DNA from: a virus
Virus record (IMG/VR): IMGVR_UViG_3300042261_001309
Coordinates: 32,001-96,000 of that record
Direction: 5' to 3' (one strand)
DNA: 64,000 bases
The notes beneath the pieces were generated by a model. That model saw only the letters and a program-made list of their open reading frames with translations. It did no database searches and was not told the DNA's origin. Positions 12,843 to 23,621 of the stretch are shown piece by piece. Each line of letters starts with the position of its first letter. Positions within the stretch are counted from its first letter, which is position 1. A program made the translations under genes and the position numbers.

Positions 12843-13931
12843 TTATCGCTTTTGATTCAGCAACAGCTGCCTTACAGCATCCGCTGTTAATGGCGCTGCA
12901 GCCGTGTTTACAGGCTGTGGAGGTGTTGGTGGGGCACCTACAGTAGCCCTAGGAAACGAAGGCTTAGGCATGCCCAAAGCGGCCATAGGATTGGATGCGT
13001 GTTCGGCTTGAATGCGCTCAACAGGCTCTGGCTCTGCTGGAGCTGATGGAATAGCTTGAACAACCGGTTGCTGCACTGGTTGTGGAATGGTCGGCATAAC
13101 CGGATTAATAGGTTGAATCTGCGATGGTGTTGGAATACTACGAGGCACAGCAACTGTAGTGTTGAAATACCCCGCCATGCATTTATCAAACACATCTGCG
13201 GCGTACATAGTCCGCAGCTGTTCTACCAACCATTCCTTTTCAGGATACAGAATAACGTCATCCAAGTTATACAGGTATTCCCAATCTGACAACTCAGTGG
13301 GAAGCTCATAAAACCGTTGTTCCGAAACAGACACAGTCCAAGGATTACTCTTTCCACCAGAACCAGGGGCCAGCTTAAACAGCACCGGCCACGCGGCTTT
13401 GGGATGATTAATCGGAGGATGATGCTGACCGTCAGCAAAACGACCGCGTTGCCACTCGTCGATTTTAGATCCACAGTTATGCACAGGCACGTCCAATACG
13501 TGTGCGCCTAATGTAAGATCACTGGTAAATGCGGCATTAAATAATACCCGTTTCTGAATACGACCAAAAAACGGATAACGCTTACGAGACTGCCCTGACA
13601 TAGGATCAGTTACGTCTTCAATCTTAGCTAGGTTAGGAAAATGCGCCTTAACCTGCGAGCTGAAATAGACTACCGGACAACCGACTTGTGATGATAATTT
13701 AATCTTGGAATCCATACCAAAATTATCTCGAATCTCGTAGGTTTTCCAAGAGACTGCGCGACCATTAGAATCCAGTTTATAAGGAGGCAAAATAAAGAAG
13801 TAAGTGCCTTCTGGATTCTTCTGACTTTTAAAGTCAACAACTCGTACGCCTTCTTTAATTGTTCGACCATAGGCGGAACTTGATGATAGATCTGAGCCTT
13901 CAAAATTTGATGTTGGTTCGTAAACTGCCAT
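12843..13931 (-). CDS. Putative single-stranded DNA-binding protein (gp32-like)
   Basis: FFILPP motif, aromatic-rich core and Pro/Gln-rich tail; directly upstream of recA. Confidence 0.5.
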   Translation of the reverse strand: MAVYEPTSNFEGSDLSSSSAYGRTIKEGVRVVDFKSQKNPEGTYFFILPPYKLDSNGRAVSWKTYEIRDNFGMDSKIKLSSQVGCPVVYFSSQVKAHFPNLAKIEDVTDPMSGQSRKRYPFFGRIQKRVLFNAAFTSDLTLGAHVLDVPVHNCGSKIDEWQRGRFADGQHHPPINHPKAAWPVLFKLAPGSGGKSNPWTVSVSEQRFYELPTELSDWEYLYNLDDVILYPEKEWLVEQLRTMYAADVFDKCMAGYFNTTVAVPRSIPTPSQIQPINPVMPTIPQPVQQPVVQAIPSAPAEPEPVERIQAEHASNPMAALGMPKPSFPRATVGAPPTPPQPVNTAAAPLTADAVRQLLLNQKR

Positions 13932-13957: not shown

Positions 13958-14551
13958 TTAGAGATGCATTACTACTGCTTGTTTTGTGTCTTCGGCACGG
14001 AGGTGGTTCAAAAATACCTGAACCATCATTGCCGCTACTATAATAGGTGTTGTGTGCGATTTTTGATTTTGTTTGTCGTAAGGTAATAGGCATCCATGGC
14101 GTTCTTGGCTTTTAAAATTGTAGTATCCTTCAATCTCTTGCTTAGCGCAACTAGAATTAAAAACCCCGAAACTGCGGGATGCGCAACGGCCGTCACATAC
14201 CCATAAATTATCCTGATGTTCATAGACGTAATCAAACAATTTCTTTCTGAAACTGCCTTCGTCTACGCATGAAAAAATATAGTTATAATTCCCAAAATCA
14301 TCTTCAGTCATGAAGCGATCAATAGGATTTACAACAAACTGATTTGATAGCACTACAGCTTTTTTCTTTCCAATGTCTTCGATGGAAAACCGCTGATGAA
14401 GTAGATTATCGATTTCTACTATATCGTTATCGTACAAGTCTATTTCAAAATTATCAGTATCCCATTGTTTACGGTTATAGCCGTAATCATGAAGAATACT
14501 GACCAAGTTTGATCCAAGTCCACCAGCGCCAGCGATACCGATTTTTATCAT
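13958..14551 (-). CDS. ThiF/MoeB/E1-like adenylyltransferase (ubiquitin-like protein activating enzyme)
   Basis: GAGGLGS nucleotide-binding loop, DNDIVEIDNLLHQ, GKKKA, SCVD..R and DGR motifs; candidate catalytic Cys in HGCLL. Confidence 0.9.
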   Translation of the reverse strand: MIKIGIAGAGGLGSNLVSILHDYGYNRKQWDTDNFEIDLYDNDIVEIDNLLHQRFSIEDIGKKKAVVLSNQFVVNPIDRFMTEDDFGNYNYIFSCVDEGSFRKKLFDYVYEHQDNLWVCDGRCASRSFGVFNSSCAKQEIEGYYNFKSQERHGCLLPYDKQNQKSHTTPIIVAAMMVQVFLNHLRAEDTKQAVVMHL

Positions 14552-14976
14552 ACTTTGAAAAAGCGTTTACCTATAAACGCATTTAATTGTTTATGCTTTT
14601 GTGAATAAATGAAGTTCATCCCGAAGCCGGGGAACAACCGATAAATATCTATGTCAGAAGGAAAAGCCTGAAATTGCGGATGAGTGTGTATGCTGGAATG
14701 GTTAAACCAACCGTCAAACAATATAGGTAGCACCTTGTCACCGTATTCCCAAGGATCCACTTCATACAACACACGAGCAATAACTGTTCCTGTATGCTTA
14801 TTTGCTAGGCGAATAAACTTAAATTCATCACCTTTAGATAAAATAACTCCGCCAGCTTCCTCAACCGGCGAAGTTAACTTATCTGGCATAGCTATTACGC
14901 ACTGCCGCAAAGCATCGGGTAGAACTAACCGGTTTTTAACTATATACGCACTGGCGAGTTCAGCCGAGGAATTCAT
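14548..14976 (-). CDS. JAB/MPN+ (JAMM) metallopeptidase
   Basis: E-AGG...HTHPxxxxxPSxxD complete JAMM motif; ATGA overlap with ThiF. Confidence 0.9.
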   Translation of the reverse strand: MNSSAELASAYIVKNRLVLPDALRQCVIAMPDKLTSPVEEAGGVILSKGDEFKFIRLANKHTGTVIARVLYEVDPWEYGDKVLPILFDGWFNHSSIHTHPQFQAFPSDIDIYRLFPGFGMNFIYSQKHKQLNAFIGKRFFKV

Positions 14977-14980
14977 AAGG

Positions 14981-17026
14981 CTAAGCTGCTTTTAACGTAG
15001 ATATGAATGAAACAGCATATTGATCATTAGCCAAGGCCAACAACCTGGAAACCAAGGCATCGTAGCCGACACCTTCATAGCTGTTACCATTTACAATGCA
15101 GATATACTTTCCAGTATCGTGATTCCAAACTTTAAACGGAGGTTCCTTAGATACAAAATAACTGCGTAACTTGCCTTTTACAAGATACCCTTTTTCACCG
15201 TGAGCTTCCGCTTCAGTACAGCCCAACTGCTCAACAATTTCAATTAGCAACTTCTCAGAACGCTGCTTAGCTTTAATGCGATCTGCACAAGCATAGCGAA
15301 TAATAGCCTCTTTTGTGGCGGGAGCGCCGGTTAAATCAGGACAAAATGCGCCTATACCTGCACAAAACTCGCGCTTTAAACGATCTGTTCTAGTAATACC
15401 ATCAGAACGTATACGCGTTTTACGATCGATAGTTTGCAGCCATTGCACACAGGAAGTGAATCGATTAACCTTAAAGTACTTAGGTTCTTCATTTTCAGGC
15501 TTATGAATCAAATACACCTGGTTATCCCGCATAATAAACTTAAGCTTAGGATGCCGAGGAGTCGCAGGACGTTTTAACTCATAACAATCATTATTTGTTC
15601 CTAACGTCTCGAACTTCATGAATACTCCATTAGTAAGAGCATTCCTAGCCAGCAGTGACATATTCTGAACATCCCGCAAAAACAAATTATATTGTTCTAT
15701 GCTGTGATAACATGTCGCATGGTTCAAGACAGCCTTTAACTCAGATTCATTAATACGATAACCGTTAATACGACGACGAGTATCTTTGGTTGAGATACTT
15801 AACGTAATAGGGATATCGTTGATTTTAAACGACACCTCTTTATCCTCTTTGAAGCCTAAGACATTTTTACAGTTAGACGTATCAAAACGGGATTCTGCAT
15901 CTTTATGCAACCGAGTTATATGCGTAGTAACTACATCAGTCACAATATTGTAAATAGTTAGAGGTACATTATCATTACTAGAATTACGATTAACCAACTG
16001 ATGCTTGAGCATTTCAGCTAACCATTCACACTCTACAGATACCGTTTCATAACTTACCTTGTTCTTAGCGATATCCATATCGTCAATTTTAAACGACGCT
16101 ATTTCCCCTGCCATTAACTTGGCGTATAAGGAATTCTTTGCATTGCACATCAATGTATAGGTGATACTTGCAGTAAATACAAAGTAATCCTTAAACATAC
16201 TCTGGACTGACCAAGACGTAGTTTCAGTTTTACCAACTACAGCTACGATTTTTTCCAGCTTCTGTATCTGTGTACGAATAAACTCGCGCTTATTACGTAC
16301 GTCCAGATAAGGAGTATCTTCCAATGGATTATTTTGCAGCTTAGTGCCCGCTAACCCAATCAGTATTAATAACTTATAAATATCGCAGTTTATTTCATCA
16401 AGCGCTAGGGGTATTAGCTTACCTCCGCGTCGATAAAATACCAAGAACCTTCCTTTATCCAAGTAATTATAAATAGGCGAAATATGCGTAGCTACAAACA
16501 CCCCCGGCACGAGTGGTTTGGTACTACCTGCAGGCACCCAAGTGGGATCCTTTACAGCTTCCGTCGATTGCGCTGTTGGTGAAGCCAATATACGGTAAGT
16601 AACTTGGTCTGCCACAACTTCAACCGGGTTATCCGTTATCTTGGTAACGAGCGGCTCGTAAGCAGATCGGGATAAATAATACGAAGAAGCCCAAGCTACG
16701 CTAATACTATCCGCAAATTCTTCTGTATAAACATTTAGCTTCTTAATTTGGGCTAGGGCTACCTTATCATTCCATTTTAACGACAAGCCCGTAAGCCACC
16801 CTATGCTTGTGGTAAATGGCGTTTCCAACCAATCTGAAGTTACATACCCTACCGTTTCGCAGGCGTCTGCAAGTTCTTTGAGTTTATTAATGGAGATCTT
16901 TTCAATTTTATAAGTGGCGAAAAAATCGTTGGAAGAAATTACAATCGATTCGCTAGGGGCCTGGTGAGCTTTTAAAAGCTCTTGGTACATTTGAGCTAAT
17001 TTAATAGAAGATATGGTGATAGACAT
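14981..17026 (-). CDS. Large uncharacterised protein of the Ubl operon with a C-terminal Cys-containing, possibly E2-like, domain
   Basis: 681-aa ORF between Ubl and JAB; C-terminal WNHDTGKYICIV...DALVSRLLAL. Confidence 0.6.
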   Translation of the reverse strand: MSITISSIKLAQMYQELLKAHQAPSESIVISSNDFFATYKIEKISINKLKELADACETVGYVTSDWLETPFTTSIGWLTGLSLKWNDKVALAQIKKLNVYTEEFADSISVAWASSYYLSRSAYEPLVTKITDNPVEVVADQVTYRILASPTAQSTEAVKDPTWVPAGSTKPLVPGVFVATHISPIYNYLDKGRFLVFYRRGGKLIPLALDEINCDIYKLLILIGLAGTKLQNNPLEDTPYLDVRNKREFIRTQIQKLEKIVAVVGKTETTSWSVQSMFKDYFVFTASITYTLMCNAKNSLYAKLMAGEIASFKIDDMDIAKNKVSYETVSVECEWLAEMLKHQLVNRNSSNDNVPLTIYNIVTDVVTTHITRLHKDAESRFDTSNCKNVLGFKEDKEVSFKINDIPITLSISTKDTRRRINGYRINESELKAVLNHATCYHSIEQYNLFLRDVQNMSLLARNALTNGVFMKFETLGTNNDCYELKRPATPRHPKLKFIMRDNQVYLIHKPENEEPKYFKVNRFTSCVQWLQTIDRKTRIRSDGITRTDRLKREFCAGIGAFCPDLTGAPATKEAIIRYACADRIKAKQRSEKLLIEIVEQLGCTEAEAHGEKGYLVKGKLRSYFVSKEPPFKVWNHDTGKYICIVNGNSYEGVGYDALVSRLLALANDQYAVSFISTLKAA

Positions 17027-17057: not shown

Positions 17058-17085
17058 AAAAAAGGGAGAGGCCGAAACCCCTCCC
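17058..17085 (-). terminator. Intrinsic terminator after the Ubl gene
   Basis: GGGAGGGGT-TTCG-GCCTCTCCC followed by T6. Confidence 0.75.
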
Positions 17086-17115: not shown

Positions 17116-17706
17116 TTACGCCACTTTAATAACCACTTCTTTGGGGTAGTCAGCGCCCAGCTCATTGATTTTACGAACATTCTGCAAATAGGTGCGCAGG
17201 CTTACTGTAAACTCAAGGAAGTCTACCGGGCAACTTAACGCATCCCGGCTGATAACAATTACGTTCTCACCATCCAGCATAAAGGCATTCTCAAAAGCCT
17301 CAAGCTGATTTAATACCACTTGGGTTTCGTCGTCGACTTCTTCGTCTTCTTCGACCACTTCAGCTTCCATGATGTTAGCCTTTTCCAATGCGGCTAAAAC
17401 GGAAGAAGAAATAATAGCCGCCAATTCTTGAGGATTAATATCTGCACCGCCGAGCAGTTCGGTGCCGAGCGTGACTGTAAGACCGTCAGGCATTTCCTCT
17501 AGCCGCGCACGCAGATCGGCCGTATCTTGATAGATAGCTGGATCTTTTTCGTTAGTGGCAGTGAACATGAACGGATCTTTGCCCAAATAGGGTCGGCACT
17601 TCTTGGTGAGGTATTCTTTAACAATTGCTTCTACGGCGGCGCCAATCTCCATGGCTACGGTATTATCGCCTTCGTGATTCAAGAAACGAACATTGATGTT
17701 TTTCAT
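17116..17706 (-). CDS. Putative ubiquitin-like (beta-grasp) protein precursor: ~87-aa Ubl ending LLGG plus ~109-aa acidic extension
   Basis: ATG at 17706 lies 8 nt after the upstream stop; strand-strand-helix start, terminal strand LTVTL, then GTELLGG (GG at 17446-17451); in operon context with JAB and ThiF. Confidence 0.6.
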   Translation of the reverse strand: MKNINVRFLNHEGDNTVAMEIGAAVEAIVKEYLTKKCRPYLGKDPFMFTATNEKDPAIYQDTADLRARLEEMPDGLTVTLGTELLGGADINPQELAAIISSSVLAALEKANIMEAEVVEEDEEVDDETQVVLNQLEAFENAFMLDGENVIVISRDALSCPVDFLEFTVSLRTYLQNVRKINELGADYPKEVVIKVA

Positions 17707-17713
17707 ATGTTTT

Positions 17714-18439
17714 TTAGTGTATGCGGAATTGAATGTTGCGGAGTTTGATTTTGTCGGAATAAGTAAGGCAAAGCTTGCATTGTGCACACGCACCAAGCTT
17801 AGGTTTATTTTTAACTTTTCCTGTTATTTCAGGACAAGCTATCCACCGCTTACTAATCGGCGGGTTGTTACCCATAAACGCAATGCCTACATTATTATAA
17901 TGACTATATTTGTCGCTTAATTTTTGCGCTTCCTGATAATTTACAGGATCCGCCGAAATGTACAACGCCAAGTTTTTGCATTCAGCCAAAATAGGCACGG
18001 CAAAGAACGACCGGGTGTAAACCCAGAATTTAACTTCAGAATACTTATTAATAACAGCTGCCCAAGCTTTCGCTTCGACTTCTGTCTTTATATCACCACT
18101 ATAACACAAACGGAAATACGGAGCACGACCCTTATCTTTTTTAATAAAACTGACAATCGTCGAATCGAAGATGGCAAACAGCTCGTCAAAGGATTTACCG
18201 GCCAGTAATTCTGTATTAAATAATAACCATTTGCCGACATCCTTGTATGCTTTTATAATGTTATCCATATAACAAGTGAGCTGTTTGCCCCCTACTTTTT
18301 TCAGTGCGAGGCACCCTCCTTTTTCTGAAGTTGCGCCTGGGCATGTTCCTCCGTTTTGCGGGAGACCTGGATTAAACCCTACTGTGTTACAATGCTCAGA
18401 GTAGAATTTAACTTTTGAATTATCTGTAAGGTGTAACAA
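17714..18439 (-). CDS. Gp88-family protein (Cys-rich, radical-SAM-like)
   Basis: NSK, TCPGA..C..CY, FRLCYSGD, FWVYTRS, ISAD and C-terminal CP..CxxCxxC. Confidence 0.7.
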   Translation of the reverse strand: MLHLTDNSKVKFYSEHCNTVGFNPGLPQNGGTCPGATSEKGGCLALKKVGGKQLTCYMDNIIKAYKDVGKWLLFNTELLAGKSFDELFAIFDSTIVSFIKKDKGRAPYFRLCYSGDIKTEVEAKAWAAVINKYSEVKFWVYTRSFFAVPILAECKNLALYISADPVNYQEAQKLSDKYSHYNNVGIAFMGNNPPISKRWIACPEITGKVKNKPKLGACAQCKLCLTYSDKIKLRNIQFRIH

Positions 18440-18549: not shown

Positions 18550-19308
18550 TTAAATAACAGGCTGAGTTTCAGTACCTAAACTACGTAGGCGGGAAAGACG
18601 AGCCTGCACTTTGCTTTTGAATACCAATGATTTATCTGCTGGTGTGGTTTTATTTGCTAATGCCGCCACAGTGAATTTATTAACCGCTAAATTCCAGCGA
18701 TTCTTTACATTTGAAATTTCACGCGCAATACCTTGTGGTGAATCACTAAAATCGATTGCTTGTCTTAATCGATAATCCAGATTGCCTATATATGCATCCA
18801 CATTAGAAGCTGTTCGGCTTAACTCACGTGGAATAGCTAATTCATTGTGTGCAAACCGAGGATTGTTATTCCAAGGGATGCTGTTTTCCACCATAAACAG
18901 ATTGATAGCTCTTAACGCTTCTGGATTCATGTGTGGAATAATCGCCAAATCTACCCGGCTTAATTTAACCAAATCATTTAACGTAGCTATTCCATAACGT
19001 TTTAATGCAGCAATAATACGGCCGTTACAATGCTTATTAACATCAAATACGAAGTTTGATATAGGCCTAGTTAAATCAGGTGTAACTCGTAATTCATCGT
19101 CGTTGGCCTTCATGTACTCCTGCATTTCTCTACAGGTATCTTTAATTTTACGTACATGCTTTAGCACGATTGATTTTTTAAACTCCGATAACTCATGCTT
19201 AGCTGCGTAATCTCTGGCCAACTGTAAGTCGATCTGACAATTAGTTAATTCCGCTGTAAGATCTGTAGCCATTGAAAACAATTCTAACTGGGTTGGTGTA
19301 TCACTCAT
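18550..19308 (-). CDS. Protein with RNA polymerase alpha-CTD-like HhH domain
   Basis: RIIAALKRYGIATLNDLVKLSRVDLAIIPHMNPEALRAI resembles the alpha-CTD pattern RxxNxLxxxxIxTxxDLxxxSxxxLxxxxNxGxxSxxEI. Confidence 0.6.
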   Translation of the reverse strand: MSDTPTQLELFSMATDLTAELTNCQIDLQLARDYAAKHELSEFKKSIVLKHVRKIKDTCREMQEYMKANDDELRVTPDLTRPISNFVFDVNKHCNGRIIAALKRYGIATLNDLVKLSRVDLAIIPHMNPEALRAINLFMVENSIPWNNNPRFAHNELAIPRELSRTASNVDAYIGNLDYRLRQAIDFSDSPQGIAREISNVKNRWNLAVNKFTVAALANKTTPADKSLVFKSKVQARLSRLRSLGTETQPVI

Positions 19309-20059: not shown

Positions 20060-20871
20060 TTAGATTTAGGCGGCACCGGCGTAATAACCGCTTTTTCTGG
20101 AGAACAACCACGTCGCAAACGCCCGCGAATAGTGTGCGTTGAAATGCCTGTTCGTTTACTCCAACCTGTAATAGACAACGTTACACCATCAACTGTGATA
20201 TTGCGGGCGTGCGGATCTGGGCTATTAGGCCGTCTAGTTACATTCGCGGGAGTAGCTAACGCTTCTTCTGGCGCCCAGCCGTTAGCTATTCTTCTAGCTA
20301 TTTGATTACTTGTAAGCCCTGTCCTTCTGGACCATTCGGCAATAATGCGTGTTTCTCCGTTAGCTGTGATATTTATATTGCGCCTAGTATTGGCAGTTTG
20401 AACACTTCGGTTAGCCCATCTGCAATTTTCTGGTGAATAATCCTTCTCGTTATCGACACGATCGAGAGTTAATCCCAAAACAAACGATGAAAACATATCC
20501 GTCACGAAATTTTCAAATCCTGACAGACCTTGCCATCTGGCACAAACAGTAATACCCCTGCCGCCGTAATGGTGATAATCTGTGTTATTTTTATCGAAAC
20601 ACCGCGATAACATGCTGTGATAAGCTCGATAAAACTTATATTTATGCTTATTTTTTTTAGACAAAAAGCCGTGTTTTCTGTTGGCTGTAAATCTTAGACA
20701 ACCGCAGGATTTTGTTGTTCCACGCAGCAAGTTGTGCCCATAGATTTCTTTTGTATTGCCACAATCACAAACACAGAGATATCTTGTATTTCTATTTATA
20801 TTGGCTGCGCGGTTGAGCACGATTAAACGCCCAAACCGTTGTCCTTCTAATTTATTTAAGCTTACTTCCAT
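20056..20871 (-). CDS. Free-standing HNH-type homing endonuclease
   Basis: CVCDCG, SCGC, YGGRGITVC.RW and TLDRVDN..DYSPENCRWA motifs; two C-terminal HTH-like repeats. Confidence 0.85.
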   Translation of the reverse strand: MEVSLNKLEGQRFGRLIVLNRAANINRNTRYLCVCDCGNTKEIYGHNLLRGTTKSCGCLRFTANRKHGFLSKKNKHKYKFYRAYHSMLSRCFDKNNTDYHHYGGRGITVCARWQGLSGFENFVTDMFSSFVLGLTLDRVDNEKDYSPENCRWANRSVQTANTRRNINITANGETRIIAEWSRRTGLTSNQIARRIANGWAPEEALATPANVTRRPNSPDPHARNITVDGVTLSITGWSKRTGISTHTIRGRLRRGCSPEKAVITPVPPKSK

Positions 20872-23621
20872 ATCCAGGAGGCGCTATCAAAGCACCACTT
20901 AGTTTCACCGGCGAAGATTTTTTCCTTACCTTTCCAACAGGTTGTGGCAATCATTTCCATGCCCAATGTAGTCCCCGTGGGAAGCTTACAATGTTCAGTA
21001 ATGAAATACTTAACCAAACTTGGAAAATAGTTATCTCTAAATAAGTCTTTGTTTACGCACCATTGTATGTCGTCATGAACCGTATTAAGTGCGAACACTT
21101 TGGTCATCCATAATTTTTGCTTCTGCAATTCTTTTTTAATACAAATGCATATATCCCAAAACAACTGAGCTAACACACTGGCGATACACCAAGCTAAGGC
21201 GGTATTATACTGTGCAGATTTAACCCCAATATTTGCGGATGGCTCAAAATAAAATCGAGTTCCGTAAATATTATCCACATACTTATTACGATCTACACTA
21301 TCCTTAACGCTCTTTCTGAAAGCCATATATTGCTTATAGTGCTCCCAAGTCGTTAAAGCGTAAGATATGTCTTCTAATGGAATTAAGAAACCTGACTCTG
21401 AAAATATCTCAGCTTGAATAGGCACTACTGCTGATTGTAACTCAGCAGTATAAGCTACTCTAAACGTAATACCTTTTGCTGAAACATAACGAGATGTGTC
21501 GTCTTTAGTTAATTTATTGTTCTTAAAATACGTCTGCATCTTTTTAAGGTGAAAATCTCCCAATAGCATATCCGTGATATAATCCTTATCCTGTGACACA
21601 TAAGCAGCAATCATTAAATCGCTACCGGCTAAGTCAACCGAGGTATAAGCATAATTAGGATCACCTGTGTAAAAAATATTACGTATGTTAGCCGGTATTT
21701 TATCGGCAAACTGTTTTTGCTGTTCTTTCGATAATGTCGTATAACCCGGCACAAATATGTTGGGAATATGTGCCAACACTTTGGAGGCTGGATTCTGGAT
21801 GTTCGGCCTAGAGCTGCTTCTAAAGTTATCTAAACACTCGTAGAAATCTGCGTGTATTCGATTATCTTTAGTTAAGGCAGCCCAATAACTTTGCTTAATA
21901 GGTTCATCCTCTTCATCTTCTTCCGTATCTTCATAATTTGCCGTCTCGAAAGGTGTGCCACGTTGATTTAGGAATTTATTAGCGAATACACCTACCCTGT
22001 TCATATCCAATAAGATAGAAACAATTTTTAGTGCATCTGCTTGCGCTTCGGTAGGCTCGGCAGATAATTGATACTTTAATGTGCTAAGCGACTTATTATT
22101 AGATGAAGGCGCGTAATTCATCGCTGAAGGCTTTTTAGGCTTCTTCATATTTTCGAAATACGCTTTAGACTTAATCTTGCCACCCTTAGTGTAATAAGGC
22201 GGAGTAAGCTTTAACTTATCATATAGCAATGCCCGCTTATCTAACGCTGACGCTGGATTAAAGGATTCCAGGTATTTTGGTACAACCAAGGCTTCCAGCT
22301 GTTGATGCAACTCGGCGTATTTACCTTGATATTTTTCAGTGAGATCCTTAAGCAACGGCATATCAATTGGCACTCCCGTATTCTCAAGGTCTATGAAGTA
22401 ATTGCTAAGAGGTAAAAACGTATCCTTATAAAATGATTGCACTTTAATTGGTAAACGTTTCATCTTCTCCCGCATCGTCACACAGGCCGCATAATGTGCC
22501 ACAGCATCACCAGCGCAGTATTCATAAAATACTTCCGGTTCCTTATACTTGAGCATACATAAATCGCACTTGGCAATTTTATGCTCAGCTAGCTTTAAAT
22601 AGAACGGAACGTAATACGGCCGATAATCTGTGAACAACCTAATACCTGTTTCCAGCCCTTTACTATACCTCGAATCAATAAACCCCATGGCTTTCATACC
22701 GTCAAAAGCCAAGGTATGTTCAGGTAGATTAAAGCCACGTCGAATAAGCCGTTTATCGTCGACTTTGATATTCCAGCCCATTCGTTGAGCGTTTGGATGC
22801 TCAAACAACGGCTTTAATGTATTTAATAATTCTAGGTTTTCAACATTACCGTTACCCACCAAGTCTAAAACAACGGCGTGATGTGGCTCACAACAATACT
22901 GCATTGTACAAAGAATTTCAGTATCATCGTAAAGCCTTCCATCAGTAAACCATTCCCCATCGTAACCGACAGTCAACAAGCCACGAGCAATATAAGAATC
23001 TACAAGCTCTTTGCTTCTGGCTGGATCAGTTACGACTTCCCATGTGTAATCTGTGTAATGTAGCTCATCTCGAATGTATCGCTTAGCTATCTCAAATATA
23101 TCTCTAAACAATGGCCGAACCGAAGGATCCTGATTAACCAGCATCCCAATGGAATAATTAGGTATTATTTTACCGTAAGGGCTATCAATAACCTCGCCTA
23201 AGTAATCCCCCATCTTGGCGTTCTTTTTTATTACCCGTTTAAACGCTTCAGATCCCAACGGCATTATCAGCTTAGGTTTTACCATTTCCACCTCAAAGTC
23301 GAAAAGTGGTGCACACTCTTCAATCATTTCTTTAGATGGTTTTGGTGATCGCCCAATACTATATTTAACCATCGAAGTGACAATCACATCATTTCTGGTT
23401 AATCCTGCTGACGCTAAGGCATTATCAAATTCATCAGCATAATCACCTTCTTCCAACAATTTGCCATTTTCCAAGTCTTCGTGACCGGGGTGCGATAGCA
23501 CAATCATTAATGGCGCCGATATATTTTTCCAACAACCCATCCAGCTACGCCCATTAACGTGCTTGGTGGTGAATAAGTCATCTACAGTACTAAGTATTAA
23601 CGGTAAGTCCATTTGCTGCAA
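20862..23621 (-). CDS. polA: Family A DNA polymerase with N-terminal UDG-like domain and 3'-5' exonuclease
   Basis: UDG4-like N-terminus (ECAP..EVEMVKPKLIMPLG); exonuclease motifs YDGE, WNIKVD and YCAGD; polymerase motifs PNIQN, A (DLAGSDL), B (AKGITF..AY) and C (VHDD). Confidence 0.9.
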   Translation of the reverse strand: MQQMDLPLILSTVDDLFTTKHVNGRSWMGCWKNISAPLMIVLSHPGHEDLENGKLLEEGDYADEFDNALASAGLTRNDVIVTSMVKYSIGRSPKPSKEMIEECAPLFDFEVEMVKPKLIMPLGSEAFKRVIKKNAKMGDYLGEVIDSPYGKIIPNYSIGMLVNQDPSVRPLFRDIFEIAKRYIRDELHYTDYTWEVVTDPARSKELVDSYIARGLLTVGYDGEWFTDGRLYDDTEILCTMQYCCEPHHAVVLDLVGNGNVENLELLNTLKPLFEHPNAQRMGWNIKVDDKRLIRRGFNLPEHTLAFDGMKAMGFIDSRYSKGLETGIRLFTDYRPYYVPFYLKLAEHKIAKCDLCMLKYKEPEVFYEYCAGDAVAHYAACVTMREKMKRLPIKVQSFYKDTFLPLSNYFIDLENTGVPIDMPLLKDLTEKYQGKYAELHQQLEALVVPKYLESFNPASALDKRALLYDKLKLTPPYYTKGGKIKSKAYFENMKKPKKPSAMNYAPSSNNKSLSTLKYQLSAEPTEAQADALKIVSILLDMNRVGVFANKFLNQRGTPFETANYEDTEEDEEDEPIKQSYWAALTKDNRIHADFYECLDNFRSSSRPNIQNPASKVLAHIPNIFVPGYTTLSKEQQKQFADKIPANIRNIFYTGDPNYAYTSVDLAGSDLMIAAYVSQDKDYITDMLLGDFHLKKMQTYFKNNKLTKDDTSRYVSAKGITFRVAYTAELQSAVVPIQAEIFSESGFLIPLEDISYALTTWEHYKQYMAFRKSVKDSVDRNKYVDNIYGTRFYFEPSANIGVKSAQYNTALAWCIASVLAQLFWDICICIKKELQKQKLWMTKVFALNTVHDDIQWCVNKDLFRDNYFPSLVKYFITEHCKLPTGTTLGMEMIATTCWKGKEKIFAGETKWCFDSASWIWK

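What the first reader, a model, noticed from the sequence alone, without database searches (positions are those of the whole stretch)
17116..17706. Ubiquitin-like protein made as a fusion precursor that needs JAB processing
From ATG 17706 the sequence reads strand (NINVRFL), turn, strand (NTVAME), helix (GAAVEAIVKEYL), further segments, then a last strand (LTVTL) and GTELLGG at residues 81-87. A further ~109-aa acidic domain follows. A buried GG explains why a JAB peptidase is encoded alongside. Cleavage would release a second protein, as with eukaryotic ubiquitin-ribosomal protein fusions. A strong UUCG-loop terminator right after this gene would plausibly give more modifier than enzymes.
Basis: partly seen in the sequence, partly recalled or inferred. 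Interest (0 to 1): 0.75.

Follow-up and report, generated by a model that had tools for sequence, protein, structure and literature searches.

The report
Phage ubiquitin-like tag precursor gene
A large uncultured freshwater phage makes a small ubiquitin-like tag as the front half of a longer protein whose back half is a decayed second copy of the tag, so the tag very probably has to be cut free by the protease encoded next to it before it can be used.

Summary
ORF 17116-17706(-) encodes 196 aa with LLGG at 84-87. The gene is followed by a 9-bp UUCG-loop hairpin plus T-run.

Residues 1-87 model as a beta-grasp domain (pLDDT 79). About 40 of the 50 best VIA-align rows are ubiquitin, SUMO, ISG15, FAT10, PB1, MoaD or similar, but Z is at most 5.3. 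The diglycine is invariant in 17 of 17 family members.

Four relatives are head-to-tail di-Ubl proteins in which each unit ends in GG, with 1-3 residues after the last GG. One sits in a fully syntenic cassette in another phage: GP88-like, Ubl, 663-aa protein, JAB, E1.

The 109-aa acidic tail is not an unrelated second protein. By transitive profile comparison it is a decayed second Ubl repeat that lacks the first hairpin and the GG.

Best reading: a polyubiquitin-like precursor, cut after G87 by the neighbouring JAB, then activated by the minimal ThiF-type E1. Cleavage, conjugation and the target are inferred.

No E2 or rhodanese was found. The JAB-Ubl complex prediction gave only weak support.

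Earlier AI notes of this scan describe phage Ubl cassettes on other DNA. I did not show that they are related to this one.

The parts
17116..17706 (-). Ubl precursor gene (196 aa plus stop), protein P0001
   Evidence: Start ATG 17706 is fixed by the conserved MKNINVR N-terminus in 4 of 4 close homologues.
17446..17706 (-). N-terminal beta-grasp Ubl domain, residues 1-87, ending LLGG (GG codons 17446-17451)
   Evidence: AF2 models. Fold searches. GG invariant in 17 of 17 members.
17119..17445 (-). C-terminal 109-aa acidic part: decayed second Ubl repeat without the beta1-beta2 hairpin and without GG; proposed removable cap
   Evidence: Alignment with second repeats. HMM and hhalign chain. Net charge -16.
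17058..17085 (-). Intrinsic-terminator-like hairpin (9 bp, UUCG loop) with T-run, between the Ubl gene and the 681-aa gene
14981..17026 (-). 681-aa conserved partner protein of unknown fold, with invariant C439 and C643; candidate carrier, ligase or target
   Evidence: No family hit. Syntenic 663-aa homologue at 27% identity. Alignment A6.
14548..14976 (-). JAB/JAMM peptidase, 142 aa, with E39/E40, H97-x-H99, S107 and D110 conserved
   Evidence: Pfam Prok-JAB E 2.7e-4, 21.2 bits, below the cut-off of 25. Two homologues carry precomputed PF14464. Alignment A5.
13958..14551 (-). Minimal ThiF-type E1-like adenylating enzyme, 197 aa, overlapping the JAB stop by 4 nt
   Evidence: Pfam ThiF E 2.5e-12. 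NCBIfam ThiF and PRTRC ThiF. PADLOC E1-E2. Alignment A7.
17714..18439 (-). GP88-family (PF17338) Cys-rich protein directly upstream; conserved neighbour, role unknown

Best explanation
P0001 is the precursor of a phage-encoded ubiquitin-like modifier.

- Residues 1-87 form a beta-grasp domain whose flexible tail ends in LLGG.
- Residues 88-196 are the remnant of a second Ubl repeat. It has lost its first hairpin and its own GG, and now acts as a C-terminal cap that blocks G87.
- The JAB metallopeptidase encoded two genes downstream cuts after G87. In relatives with two intact repeats it would cut after each GG, as deubiquitinases do with polyubiquitin.
- The minimal ThiF-type E1 then adenylates the freed G87 carboxylate.
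- The activated Ubl is passed to protein targets. This happens either directly from the E1, as in E2-less archaeal sampylation, or through the conserved 681-aa protein with its two invariant cysteines.

The hairpin terminator after the Ubl gene would let the modifier be made in excess over the enzymes.

Shown here: gene, motif, fold class, family architectures, conserved synteny, intact JAB and E1 motifs.
Inferred: cleavage, adenylation, conjugation, targets, and any role of the cap beyond blocking.
For: 1. GG is invariant in 17 of 17 family members while the rest of the protein diverges to 30-46% identity.

2. Architectures:
- Four members (P0006, P0007, P0018, P0019; the last two differ at 2 residues) are tandem di-Ubls. 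Each unit ends in GG, with only 1-3 residues after the last GG.
- Eleven have a GG followed by 70-282 variable residues.
- In those eleven, the GG that is kept is the internal one, not one at the C-terminus.

3. The extension is a decayed repeat.
- An HMM of the N-domains hits 4 of 4 intact second repeats (E 3.5e-25 to 3.3e-24).
- It hits 5 of 6 short extensions at E below 0.01 (1.8e-7 to 9.2e-3), over HMM positions about 16-84.
- hhalign, short extensions against full repeats: probability 97.6, E 2.6e-12.
- hhalign, window-clade extension against short extensions: probability 93.7, E 1.9e-7 over 31 columns.

4. Fold.
- The N-domain model has pLDDT 79.4 and pTM 0.66.
- About 40 of the 50 top VIA-align rows are Ub/Ubl/PB1/MoaD-type beta-grasp chains. 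Examples: PB1 Z 5.3 (rmsd 3.1, 71 aligned); ISG15 C-domain Z 5.0 (3.1, 66 aligned, model 1-87 onto chain 81-156); bacterial E1-E2-Ubl complex chain 8tyz_B Z 4.6 (2.7, 68 aligned); MOCS2A Z 4.5.
- Foldseek's best rows are PB1, SUMO, UBX and NEDD8 at E 0.047-0.16.

5. Synteny. Another phage (L002; PolA 53% identical) keeps GP88-like (51%), Ubl, 663-aa protein (27%), JAB (41%), E1 (43%), 361-aa protein (41%) and RecA-like (60%) in the same order.

6. Enzyme motifs.
- JAB: E, HxH, S and D are invariant in 5 of 5 sequences.
- E1: GAGGxG and the CVD..FR block are conserved.

7. Complex prediction, JAB with Ubl 1-110.
- ipSAE 0.81/0.42/0.51, median 0.51; best of 3 controls 0.01. The tool's verdict is 'weak support'.
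- The runs agree in at least 29% of contacts; partner pLDDT is at least 75.
- The mark was reached by 58 of 80 solved complexes and 2 of 110 mismatched pairs. At 0.60 or under it was reached by only 7 of the 80, and by both mismatches that passed.
- JAB-ubiquitin complexes are solved, so the score may reflect likeness.

8. Precedent. BilC (a JAB) cuts a BilA-GFP fusion after the reactive Gly (PMC10557695, passages read). Iyer et al. 2006 predicted JAB release of the Ubl from lambda TAPI and noted 2-3 tandem Ubl repeats in E1/E2/JAB operons (PMC1779556, passages read).
Against: - No experiment and no RNA or protein data. No RNA run holds the stretch.
- Fold matches are modest: best Z 5.3 and best Foldseek E 0.035-0.047, under the tool's stated noise level of Z 8.
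- No sequence-family hit for the Ubl in Pfam, PHROGs, NCBIfam, PADLOC or PDB.
- The window clade's own extension does not match the Ubl repeat profile directly. HMM E is 0.6-1.2 for 0 of 4 hits, and hhalign against all repeats gives E 0.092 and probability 0.6. The link is transitive only.
- The only single-domain forms sit on very short contigs and may be contig-end cuts: P0014 (GG+1) on 530 bp and P0017 (GG+19) on 769 bp.
- The JAB scores below Pfam's cut-off: 21.2 bits against 25.
- No E2 was found, so the conjugation route is open.
- The E1 reads NLLHQ where I recall NLxRQ in ThiF/MoeB (recalled motif).
- The complex verdict was only 'weak'.
- The terminator's T-run is not conserved in L002.
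Confidence: 0.62

Rival explanations
1. Sulfur-carrier system. The Ubl is a ThiS/MoaD/QbsE-type carrier. JAB trims it to GG, the ThiF-like enzyme adenylates it, and it is thiocarboxylated. The sulfur is then delivered to a phage-specific small molecule, nucleotide or DNA/RNA modification, perhaps made by the Cys-rich GP88-family protein upstream.
For: - The E1's best named matches are ThiF adenylyltransferases (NCBIfam NF006395 E 2.3e-11; Pfam ThiF 2.5e-12).
- No E2 was found.
- MoaD (MOCS2A) is among the fold matches at Z 4.5-5.0, level with ubiquitin.
- A Cys-rich GP88-family gene is a conserved upstream neighbour.
- JAB trimming of sulfur carriers with C-terminal extensions is known (recalled: QbsD/QbsE, Mec+/CysO). 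Iyer 2006 discusses ThiS/MoaD-JAB-E1 clusters.
Against: - No rhodanese domain in the E1 or anywhere in the 127-kb record, which is 61% complete.
- No ThiS/MoaD Pfam hit for the Ubl.
- Tandem repeats each ending in GG are a feature of modifiers. I know of no tandem sulfur carrier (recalled).
- The GP88 family (phrog_1392) is annotated 'unknown function', and I could not link it to sulfur chemistry.
- The cassette sits among replication and recombination genes, with no cofactor or sulfur-assimilation genes nearby.
Confidence: 0.13
2. Uncleaved two-domain protein. The GG is only a hinge between a Ubl-like domain and a helical acidic domain. The protein works non-covalently, for example as an adaptor or a DNA mimic in the replication module. 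JAB and E1 act on something else.
For: - The close clade conserves the C-terminal part in length and at 45-49% identity, so it has a function of its own.
- It is strongly acidic, net charge -16.
- The complex prediction is only weak.
- Many Ubl domains are integral, never-cleaved parts of larger proteins (general knowledge).
Against: - The GG is invariant in 17 of 17 members although the sequence after it varies from 1 to 282 residues.
- In the tandem forms the same motif recurs 1-3 residues from the true C-terminus.
- No other candidate Ubl substrate for the conserved JAB-E1 pair was seen in the cassette.
Confidence: 0.15
3. Decaying relic. The ancestral di-Ubl gene is degenerating in this phage lineage, and the present protein is a partly disabled leftover without a specific function for its C-terminal half.
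For: - The second repeat has lost its hairpin and GG.
- It no longer matches the repeat profile directly.
Against: - The ORF is intact.
- The same truncated architecture occurs in 4 of 4 close homologues at 53-60% overall identity, and in 6 more distant members.
- JAB, E1 and the 681-aa partner are intact.
Confidence: 0.05

Closest known systems
Eukaryotic polyubiquitin and ubiquitin-fusion precursors (general knowledge, recalled)
   Same: - The modifier is encoded as a head-to-tail fusion and needs a deubiquitinase to expose the C-terminal GG.
- Relatives P0006, P0007, P0018 and P0019 have two repeats, each ending in GG, plus a 1-3-residue cap, like the extra residue on the last unit of polyubiquitin.
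   Different: - No detectable sequence similarity to ubiquitin.
- The likely processing enzyme is a JAB metalloprotease.
- In the window the second unit is a truncated pseudo-repeat without GG, not a ribosomal protein or a live Ubl.
BilABCD (bacterial ISG15-like anti-phage system; PMC10557695, passages read)
   Same: - Ubl, JAB and E1 in one operon.
- The JAB (BilC) pre-processes the Ubl by cutting after the reactive Gly, and also cuts a Ubl-GFP fusion.
- The BilA-complex chain 8tyz_B is among the fold matches (Z 4.6, rmsd 2.7, 68 aligned).
   Different: - Bil is a bacterial defence; this cassette lies in a phage replication module.
- Bil has an E2 (BilB). None was found here; a 681-aa unknown protein occupies that slot.
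- The Bil pro-peptide is one residue, not a 109-aa domain.
- In multi-beta-grasp bacterial Ubls only the last domain is described as reactive (PMC11601603, abstract read). Here the first domain keeps the GG.
Lambda/T1 tail assembly protein I (TAPI) with the TAPK JAB domain (Iyer et al. 2006, PMC1779556, passages read)
   Same: - A phage-encoded Ubl domain with a conserved C-terminal Gly, fused through a linker to a small C-terminal domain.
- It lies next to a JAB peptidase that was predicted to release the Ubl.
   Different: - TAPI lies in the tail module with no E1. Here the setting is replication and recombination, with an E1.
- No Pfam or PHROG hit joins P0001 to any tail assembly family.
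E2-less prokaryotic Ubl systems: archaeal SAMP/UbaA/HvJAMM1 (PMC4443979, abstract seen) and Thermus TtuB/TtuC (recalled)
   Same: A beta-grasp Ubl ending in GG, a single ThiF-type E1 and a JAMM protease, with no E2.
   Different: - Those Ubls belong to the ThiS/MoaD sequence families and double as sulfur carriers.
- They are not made as long fusion precursors or tandem repeats.
- The E1 here is much shorter (197 aa) and has no CxxC pairs.

Membership tests
Beta-grasp ubiquitin-like modifier (superfamily level) | Beta-grasp fold (beta-beta-alpha-beta-beta-helix-beta) | tested here: met
   - AF2 N-domain model: pLDDT 79.4, pTM 0.66; E3-10, E13-20, H21-35, E38-41, H57-71, E77-81.
- About 40 of 50 top VIA-align rows are Ub/Ubl/PB1/MoaD chains, best Z 5.3.
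- Foldseek top rows are PB1/SUMO/UBX at E 0.047 or weaker.
- The scores are modest; the homogeneity of the list carries the call.
Beta-grasp ubiquitin-like modifier (superfamily level) | Flexible tail ending in a conserved Gly or Gly-Gly directly after the last strand | tested here: met
   - LLGG at 84-87.
- GG invariant in 17 of 17 members.
- pLDDT below 50 for residues 84-90.
Beta-grasp ubiquitin-like modifier (superfamily level) | Activation of the C-terminal Gly by a cognate E1 | not testable with these tools
   A ThiF-domain gene is a conserved neighbour. Adenylation was not assayed.
Named Ubl sequence families (Pfam ubiquitin, ThiS, MoaD, prokaryotic Ub families) | Significant match to the family profile | tested here: not met
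   - 0 Pfam families at E up to 0.1.
- 0 in PHROGs, NCBIfam and PADLOC.
- The PDB profile search found no Ubl chain at E up to 10.
Polyubiquitin-type precursor | Head-to-tail repeats, each ending in GG, with a short C-terminal cap | tested here: inconclusive
   - Met in 4 relatives: P0006, P0007, P0018, P0019.
- In the window only the first unit is intact. The second is a truncated remnant, supported only transitively.
Polyubiquitin-type precursor | Endoproteolytic release after GG by a deubiquitinase | not testable with these tools
   Only a complex prediction with the tool's verdict 'weak support': median ipSAE 0.51, best control 0.01.
BilABCD system | E2 (BilB-like UBC fold) in the operon | tested here: inconclusive
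   - UQ_con: one 14.3-bit match with 2 stops inside, below the cut-off.
- Prok-E2_B: none in the 127-kb record, which is 61% complete.
- The 681-aa protein could hide a divergent E2-like domain. Its fold was not predicted here, and the Atlas model has pLDDT 0.41.
- Other Prok-E2 families were not searched.
BilABCD system | JAB deubiquitinase with an intact JAMM motif | tested here: met
   - E39/E40, H97, H99, S107 and D110 are invariant in 5 of 5 sequences.
- Pfam Prok-JAB E 2.7e-4 but below the cut-off.
- The JAMM motif definition is recalled.
ThiS/MoaD-type sulfur carrier system | Sulfur-transfer partner (rhodanese domain on or near the E1) and a sulfur-accepting biosynthetic enzyme | tested here: not met
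   - No rhodanese match at E up to 0.1 in the record; the control rang in 13 of 14 genomes.
- The E1 is 197 aa with only the ThiF domain.
- The record is incomplete, and a host enzyme could serve.
Lambda TAPI-type tail assembly Ubl | Location in the tail module beside TAPK/TAPJ; sequence membership | tested here: not met
   - Neighbours are helicase, PolA, RecA-like, JAB and E1.
- No PHROG or Pfam tail-assembly hit.

The most novel reading that the evidence does not exclude
A lineage of large uncultured freshwater phages runs its own E2-less ubiquitin-like tagging system inside the replication and recombination module.

- The tag is encoded polyubiquitin-style, as head-to-tail units each ending in GG.
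- In some phages the last unit has decayed into a dedicated acidic cap. The cap keeps the tag inert until the phage JAB is made, which gives a timing switch.
- The conserved 681-aa protein with two invariant cysteines is a new kind of carrier or ligase. It would pass the tag to replication or recombination proteins, or to host defence proteins.
Probability: 0.3. Interest if true: 0.8.

Novelty: new variant of a known kind. Interest (0 to 1): 0.6.

Why it matters
Ubiquitin-like conjugation in the prokaryotic world has so far been studied as a bacterial defence against phages (Bil, type II CBASS) or as archaeal sampylation. My five literature searches returned no paper describing a phage-run Ubl-E1-JAB cassette in a replication module. 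They also returned no prokaryotic or viral Ubl gene built like polyubiquitin with a GG after each unit. These searches cover open-access text only, and supplements were closed.

If the reading is right, phages use protein tagging offensively or for their own replication. The family also shows in one series how a polyubiquitin-type gene turns into a Ubl-plus-cap precursor: intact tandem, then truncated second unit, then strongly diverged acidic cap.

It also offers a small system of three or four proteins for testing E2-independent conjugation, and for finding what the 681-aa partner does.

Tried and rejected
- GenBank phages. No hit for the cassette DNA (blastn) or, by tblastn, for the Ubl, E1, the 681-aa protein or PolA at E 1e-10. 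No annotated relative could be read.
- The search for related loci on viral contigs. Queries A1, P0006 and P0005 found nothing. A3 found two nearly identical loci, L002 and L003.
- Metagenome scan. It found only one 1.8-kb locus, L004, which I did not study further.
- Two hits dropped. One search listed P0011 (877 aa, 9 stretches) and P0012 (3332 aa, 14 stretches), matching only query residues 60-136 and 78-156. I left them out of all alignments as probable acidic low-complexity matches and did not inspect their sequences.
- ESM Atlas. Uninformative for both the 681-aa protein and P0001; its own models have pLDDT 0.41 and 0.52.
- PDB sequence searches. Nothing for E1 or GP88. JAB and the 681-aa protein each gave one chance-level row, E 0.35 and 0.85.
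- C-terminal part of the whole-protein model. Its VIA-align matches (residues 123-186, Z up to 6.0) are generic helical hairpins, and I read nothing into them.
- Literature. The PF17338 search found 0 papers. The jumbo-phage survey PMC7824862 has no passage on JAB, E1 or Ubl. The Bil preprint 10.1101/2023.09.04.556158 has no passage on phage-encoded homologues.
- RNA runs. No RNA holder was listed for the stretch, so read laying was not used and the 3'-end question stays open.
- Not done. I did not search other Prok-E2 families or cysteine desulfurase.
- Context of distant family members. That P0003, P0022 and P0024 share a contig is only inferred from the equal longest-contig length of 24,206 bp.
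- Earlier scan notes. A sequence look-up with P0018 and P0009 found nothing.
Full report
**Setting**

The window is bases 32001-96000 of a 127-kb IMG/VR virus record estimated 61% complete. The DNA occurs in lake and freshwater metagenome runs.

The finding lies in a minus-strand block of replication and recombination genes:
- DnaB-like helicase
- 919-aa PolA
- GP88-family protein (PF17338, E 1.8e-20)
- the finding's ORF
- a 681-aa protein with no family hit
- a 142-aa JAB
- a 197-aa ThiF-domain protein (E 2.5e-12)
- a 362-aa unknown protein
- a RecA/UvsX-like protein (E 1.8e-28)

**Observation**

ATG 17706 to stop 17116-17118 gives 196 residues, with GTELLGG at 81-87. The longer TTG-started frame runs into the upstream gene. 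The conserved N-terminus MKNINVR in all close homologues fixes ATG 17706 as the start.

The 109 residues after GG have net charge -16. The hairpin 17085-17064 has a 9-bp stem, a UUCG loop and a following U6 run. MFE is -21.7 kcal/mol and z is -2.90.

**Family**

The word-indexed search found 4 proteins at E up to 0.01 among 348 candidates, including the query itself. The other three are 53-60% identical and full length.

The exhaustive search of 1.84 billion cluster representatives found 14 proteins at E up to 0.001, the query included. I dropped two long ones, P0011 and P0012, as acidic low-complexity matches without inspecting them.

With two translated phage copies, P0018 and P0019, the family has 17 members. 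GG is invariant in 17 of 17. So are R7, G13, A24, F46, F48, D55, D61, L65 and L69, although mean column identity is only 22%.

No member has a hit in Pfam, PHROGs, NCBIfam, PADLOC or PDB sequences. This is a rare, unnamed sequence family.

**Architectures**

- Four members are tandem di-Ubls: P0006, P0007, and P0018/P0019, which differ at 2 residues. The second unit is a full copy and ends GG plus R, TRR, SAR or SAH.
- Eleven have one intact unit followed by 70-282 further residues.
- P0014 ends GG+C and P0017 ends GG+19. They come from contigs of 530 and 769 bp, so their ends may be artefacts. I give them no weight.

**What the C-terminal part is**

MAFFT placed the extensions under the second repeat of the tandem forms. 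An HMM built from the 17 N-domains gave these results against the parts after the first GG:
- The 4 intact second repeats: E 3.5e-25 to 3.3e-24.
- The 6 short extensions: 5 hit at E below 0.01 (P0010 1.8e-7, P0009 1.2e-4, P0015 5e-4, P0005 9e-4, P0013 9.2e-3); P0016 scored 0.025.
- These alignments cover HMM positions about 16-84, from the first helix to the last strand. They lack the beta1-beta2 hairpin and the GG.
- P0008 (E 0.55) and the four window-clade extensions (E 0.6-1.2) are not hit directly.

Profile-profile comparison closes the chain:

| Comparison | Probability | E-value | Columns |
|---|---|---|---|
| Short extensions vs full repeats | 97.6 | 2.6e-12 | 61 |
| Window-clade extension vs short extensions | 93.7 | 1.9e-7 | 31 |
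| Window-clade extension vs intact second repeats | 25 | 7.5e-4 | 35, same register |
| Window-clade extension vs all repeats | 0.6 | 0.092 | 29 |

So the acidic domain is best read as a strongly diverged, N- and C-terminally truncated second Ubl unit with a clade-specific extra helix. The AF2 model shows H92-110, a disordered acidic stretch 109-122, H126-142, E149-152, H160-182 and E192-195. This link is transitive and is the least secure structural statement in this report.

**Fold**

The whole-protein model has pLDDT 78.4 and pTM 0.42, with residues 84-90 below 50. The N-domain model (93 residues) has pLDDT 79.4 and pTM 0.66.

Foldseek against PDB gave no row at E up to 0.001. The best rows were:
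- SUMO fusions, PB1, UBX, NEDD8, ISG15 and Caldiarchaeum ubiquitin at E 0.035-0.18.

VIA-align against 48,161 representative chains gave 2 chains at Z of 5 or more for the N-domain model. By their titles, about 40 of the 50 listed rows are ubiquitin, Ubl modifiers, Ubl/PB1/CAD domains, SUMO tags or the MoaD-type subunit. Examples:

| Chain | Z | rmsd | Aligned |
|---|---|---|---|
| PB1 (4mjs_A) | 5.3 | 3.1 | 71 |
| ISG15 C-domain (model 1-87 on chain 81-156) | 5.0 | 3.1 | 66 |
| FUBI | 4.9 | 2.8 | 62 |
| Bacterial E1-E2-Ubl complex, 8tyz_B | 4.6 | 2.7 | 68 |
| MOCS2A | 4.5 | 3.4 | 69 |

The tool warns that Z under 8 can be a common arrangement. I rest the beta-grasp call on the uniformity of the list and on the topology. 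The fold cannot separate ubiquitin-type from ThiS/MoaD-type.

**Conserved cassette**

L002 and L003 are near-identical loci from contigs of 183 and 103 kb. They carry the same gene order:

| Gene | Identity to window |
|---|---|
| Helicase | 35% |
| PolA | 53% |
| GP88-like | 51% |
| Ubl (tandem form there) | n/a |
| 663-aa protein | 27% over about 700 columns |
| JAB | 41% |
| E1 | 43% |
| 361-aa protein | 41% |
| RecA-like | 60% |

- JAB. In 5 of 5 sequences the Glu pair, HxH, Ser and Asp of the JAMM motif are invariant (the motif definition is recalled).
- E1. It keeps GAGGxG and the CVD..FR block and has three conserved cysteines, C95, C123 and C154. It has no CxxC pairs. It reads NLLHQ where I recall NLxRQ.
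- 681-aa family. Four sequences have invariant C439 and C643.
- Not found. Neither UQ_con above its cut-off, nor Prok-E2_B, nor rhodanese occurs in the 127-kb record. The record is incomplete.

**Mechanism**

The conserved internal GG, the tandem forms with GG after each unit, the conserved JAB and E1, and the experimental precedent all point one way. The precedent is that BilC cuts BilA, and a BilA-GFP fusion, after the reactive Gly (PMC10557695, passages). The Ubl is made as a blocked precursor, freed by JAB cleavage after G87, and then adenylated by the E1.

The JAB with Ubl(1-110) complex prediction gave ipSAE 0.81, 0.42 and 0.51, median 0.51, against 0.01 for the best of three controls. 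The tool's verdict is 'weak support'. The mark was reached by 58 of 80 solved complexes and 2 of 110 mismatched pairs. At 0.60 or under it was reached by only 7 of the 80 and by both mismatches that passed. Runs agree in at least 29% of contacts, and partner pLDDT is at least 75. A pass may come from memory of solved JAB-ubiquitin complexes.

What follows activation is inferred. I favour protein conjugation, either E2-less as in sampylation or through the cysteine-bearing 681-aa protein. The sulfur-carrier rival stays open because the E1 is ThiF-like, no E2 was found, and a Cys-rich GP88-family protein is a conserved neighbour.

**Terminator**

The hairpin plus U-run after the Ubl gene fits attenuation between modifier and enzymes. 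L002 has an equally stable hairpin at the same place (MFE -22.8, z -2.87) but no T-run. A conserved RNA structure is likely. Intrinsic termination is supported only for the window's phage and is untested.

**Comparison with the known, and novelty**

The principle of a Ubl precursor trimmed by a JAB next to an E1 is known:
- Bil systems.
- The Caldiarchaeum system (cited in PMC10557695).
- Predictions for lambda TAPI and for ThiS/MoaD fusions in Iyer et al. 2006.
- Tandem Ubl repeats in prokaryotic E1/E2/JAB operons were noted there too.

Different here:
- a phage replication-module setting
- an unnamed Ubl sequence family
- a 197-aa E1 without a recognised E2
- a conserved 681-aa partner
- the series from polyubiquitin-like tandem genes to a Ubl capped by a dead repeat, in which the first domain, not the last, keeps the GG

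I therefore class it as a new variant of a known kind. Five literature searches returned no description of such a phage cassette. They cover open-access full text only, and supplements were closed.

Earlier AI notes of this scan describe phage Ubl cassettes on other genomes. One of them also lies among replication genes, with a masked diglycine and a large unknown partner. Sequence look-ups with P0018 and P0009 showed no link, so I treat these notes as leads only.

Noticed in passing
window 20862-23621 (-): The 919-aa PolA has no tblastn match at E up to 1e-10 in 50,697 GenBank phage records. The E1 and the 681-aa protein also have none at 1e-3. The phage seems to belong to a lineage without a sequenced cultured relative.
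   Followed up: partly
window 14981-17026 (-): The 681-aa protein family (4 sequences, A6) has invariant Cys439 and Cys643 and a strongly conserved block around residues 402-440. There is no hit in any family library or in PDB. It is a candidate carrier, ligase or target of the Ubl.
   Followed up: partly
window 13958-14551 (-): The E1-like protein is only 197 aa, has no CxxC zinc motifs, and reads NLLHQ where ThiF/MoeB enzymes, as I recall, read NLxRQ. Its second-best NCBIfam match is the PRTRC-system ThiF (E 9.1e-9), below the cut-off.
   Followed up: no
L002 8566-8594 (+): A stable hairpin (MFE -22.8, z -2.87) follows the Ubl gene in the syntenic phage too, but without a T-run. This looks like a position-conserved RNA structure of unclear role.
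   Followed up: partly
window 17714-18439 (-): A GP88-family (PF17338, phrog_1392) Cys-rich protein ends 7 nt before the Ubl start and is conserved in the same place in L002 (51% identity). No paper mentions PF17338, and it has no PDB relative by sequence.
   Followed up: partly
window 12843-13931 (-): A 362-aa protein with a Pro/Gln-rich C-terminal half and no family hit is conserved (41% identity) between the E1 and the RecA-like gene in both phages.
   Followed up: no
proteins P0008 and P0010 (family members): P0008 carries a 282-residue extension after GG, with an Asp/Asn-rich stretch and a further globular part. P0010 has a Cys-rich stretch directly after GG and a long Glu/Ala run. The cap region is very plastic.
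   Followed up: no
window 18550-19308 (-): A 252-aa protein has a weak RNA polymerase alpha-CTD-like match (Pfam E 0.0018, 18.4 bits, below the cut-off of 23.8). A weakly similar 378-aa protein (25% identity) sits at the same place in L002.
   Followed up: no
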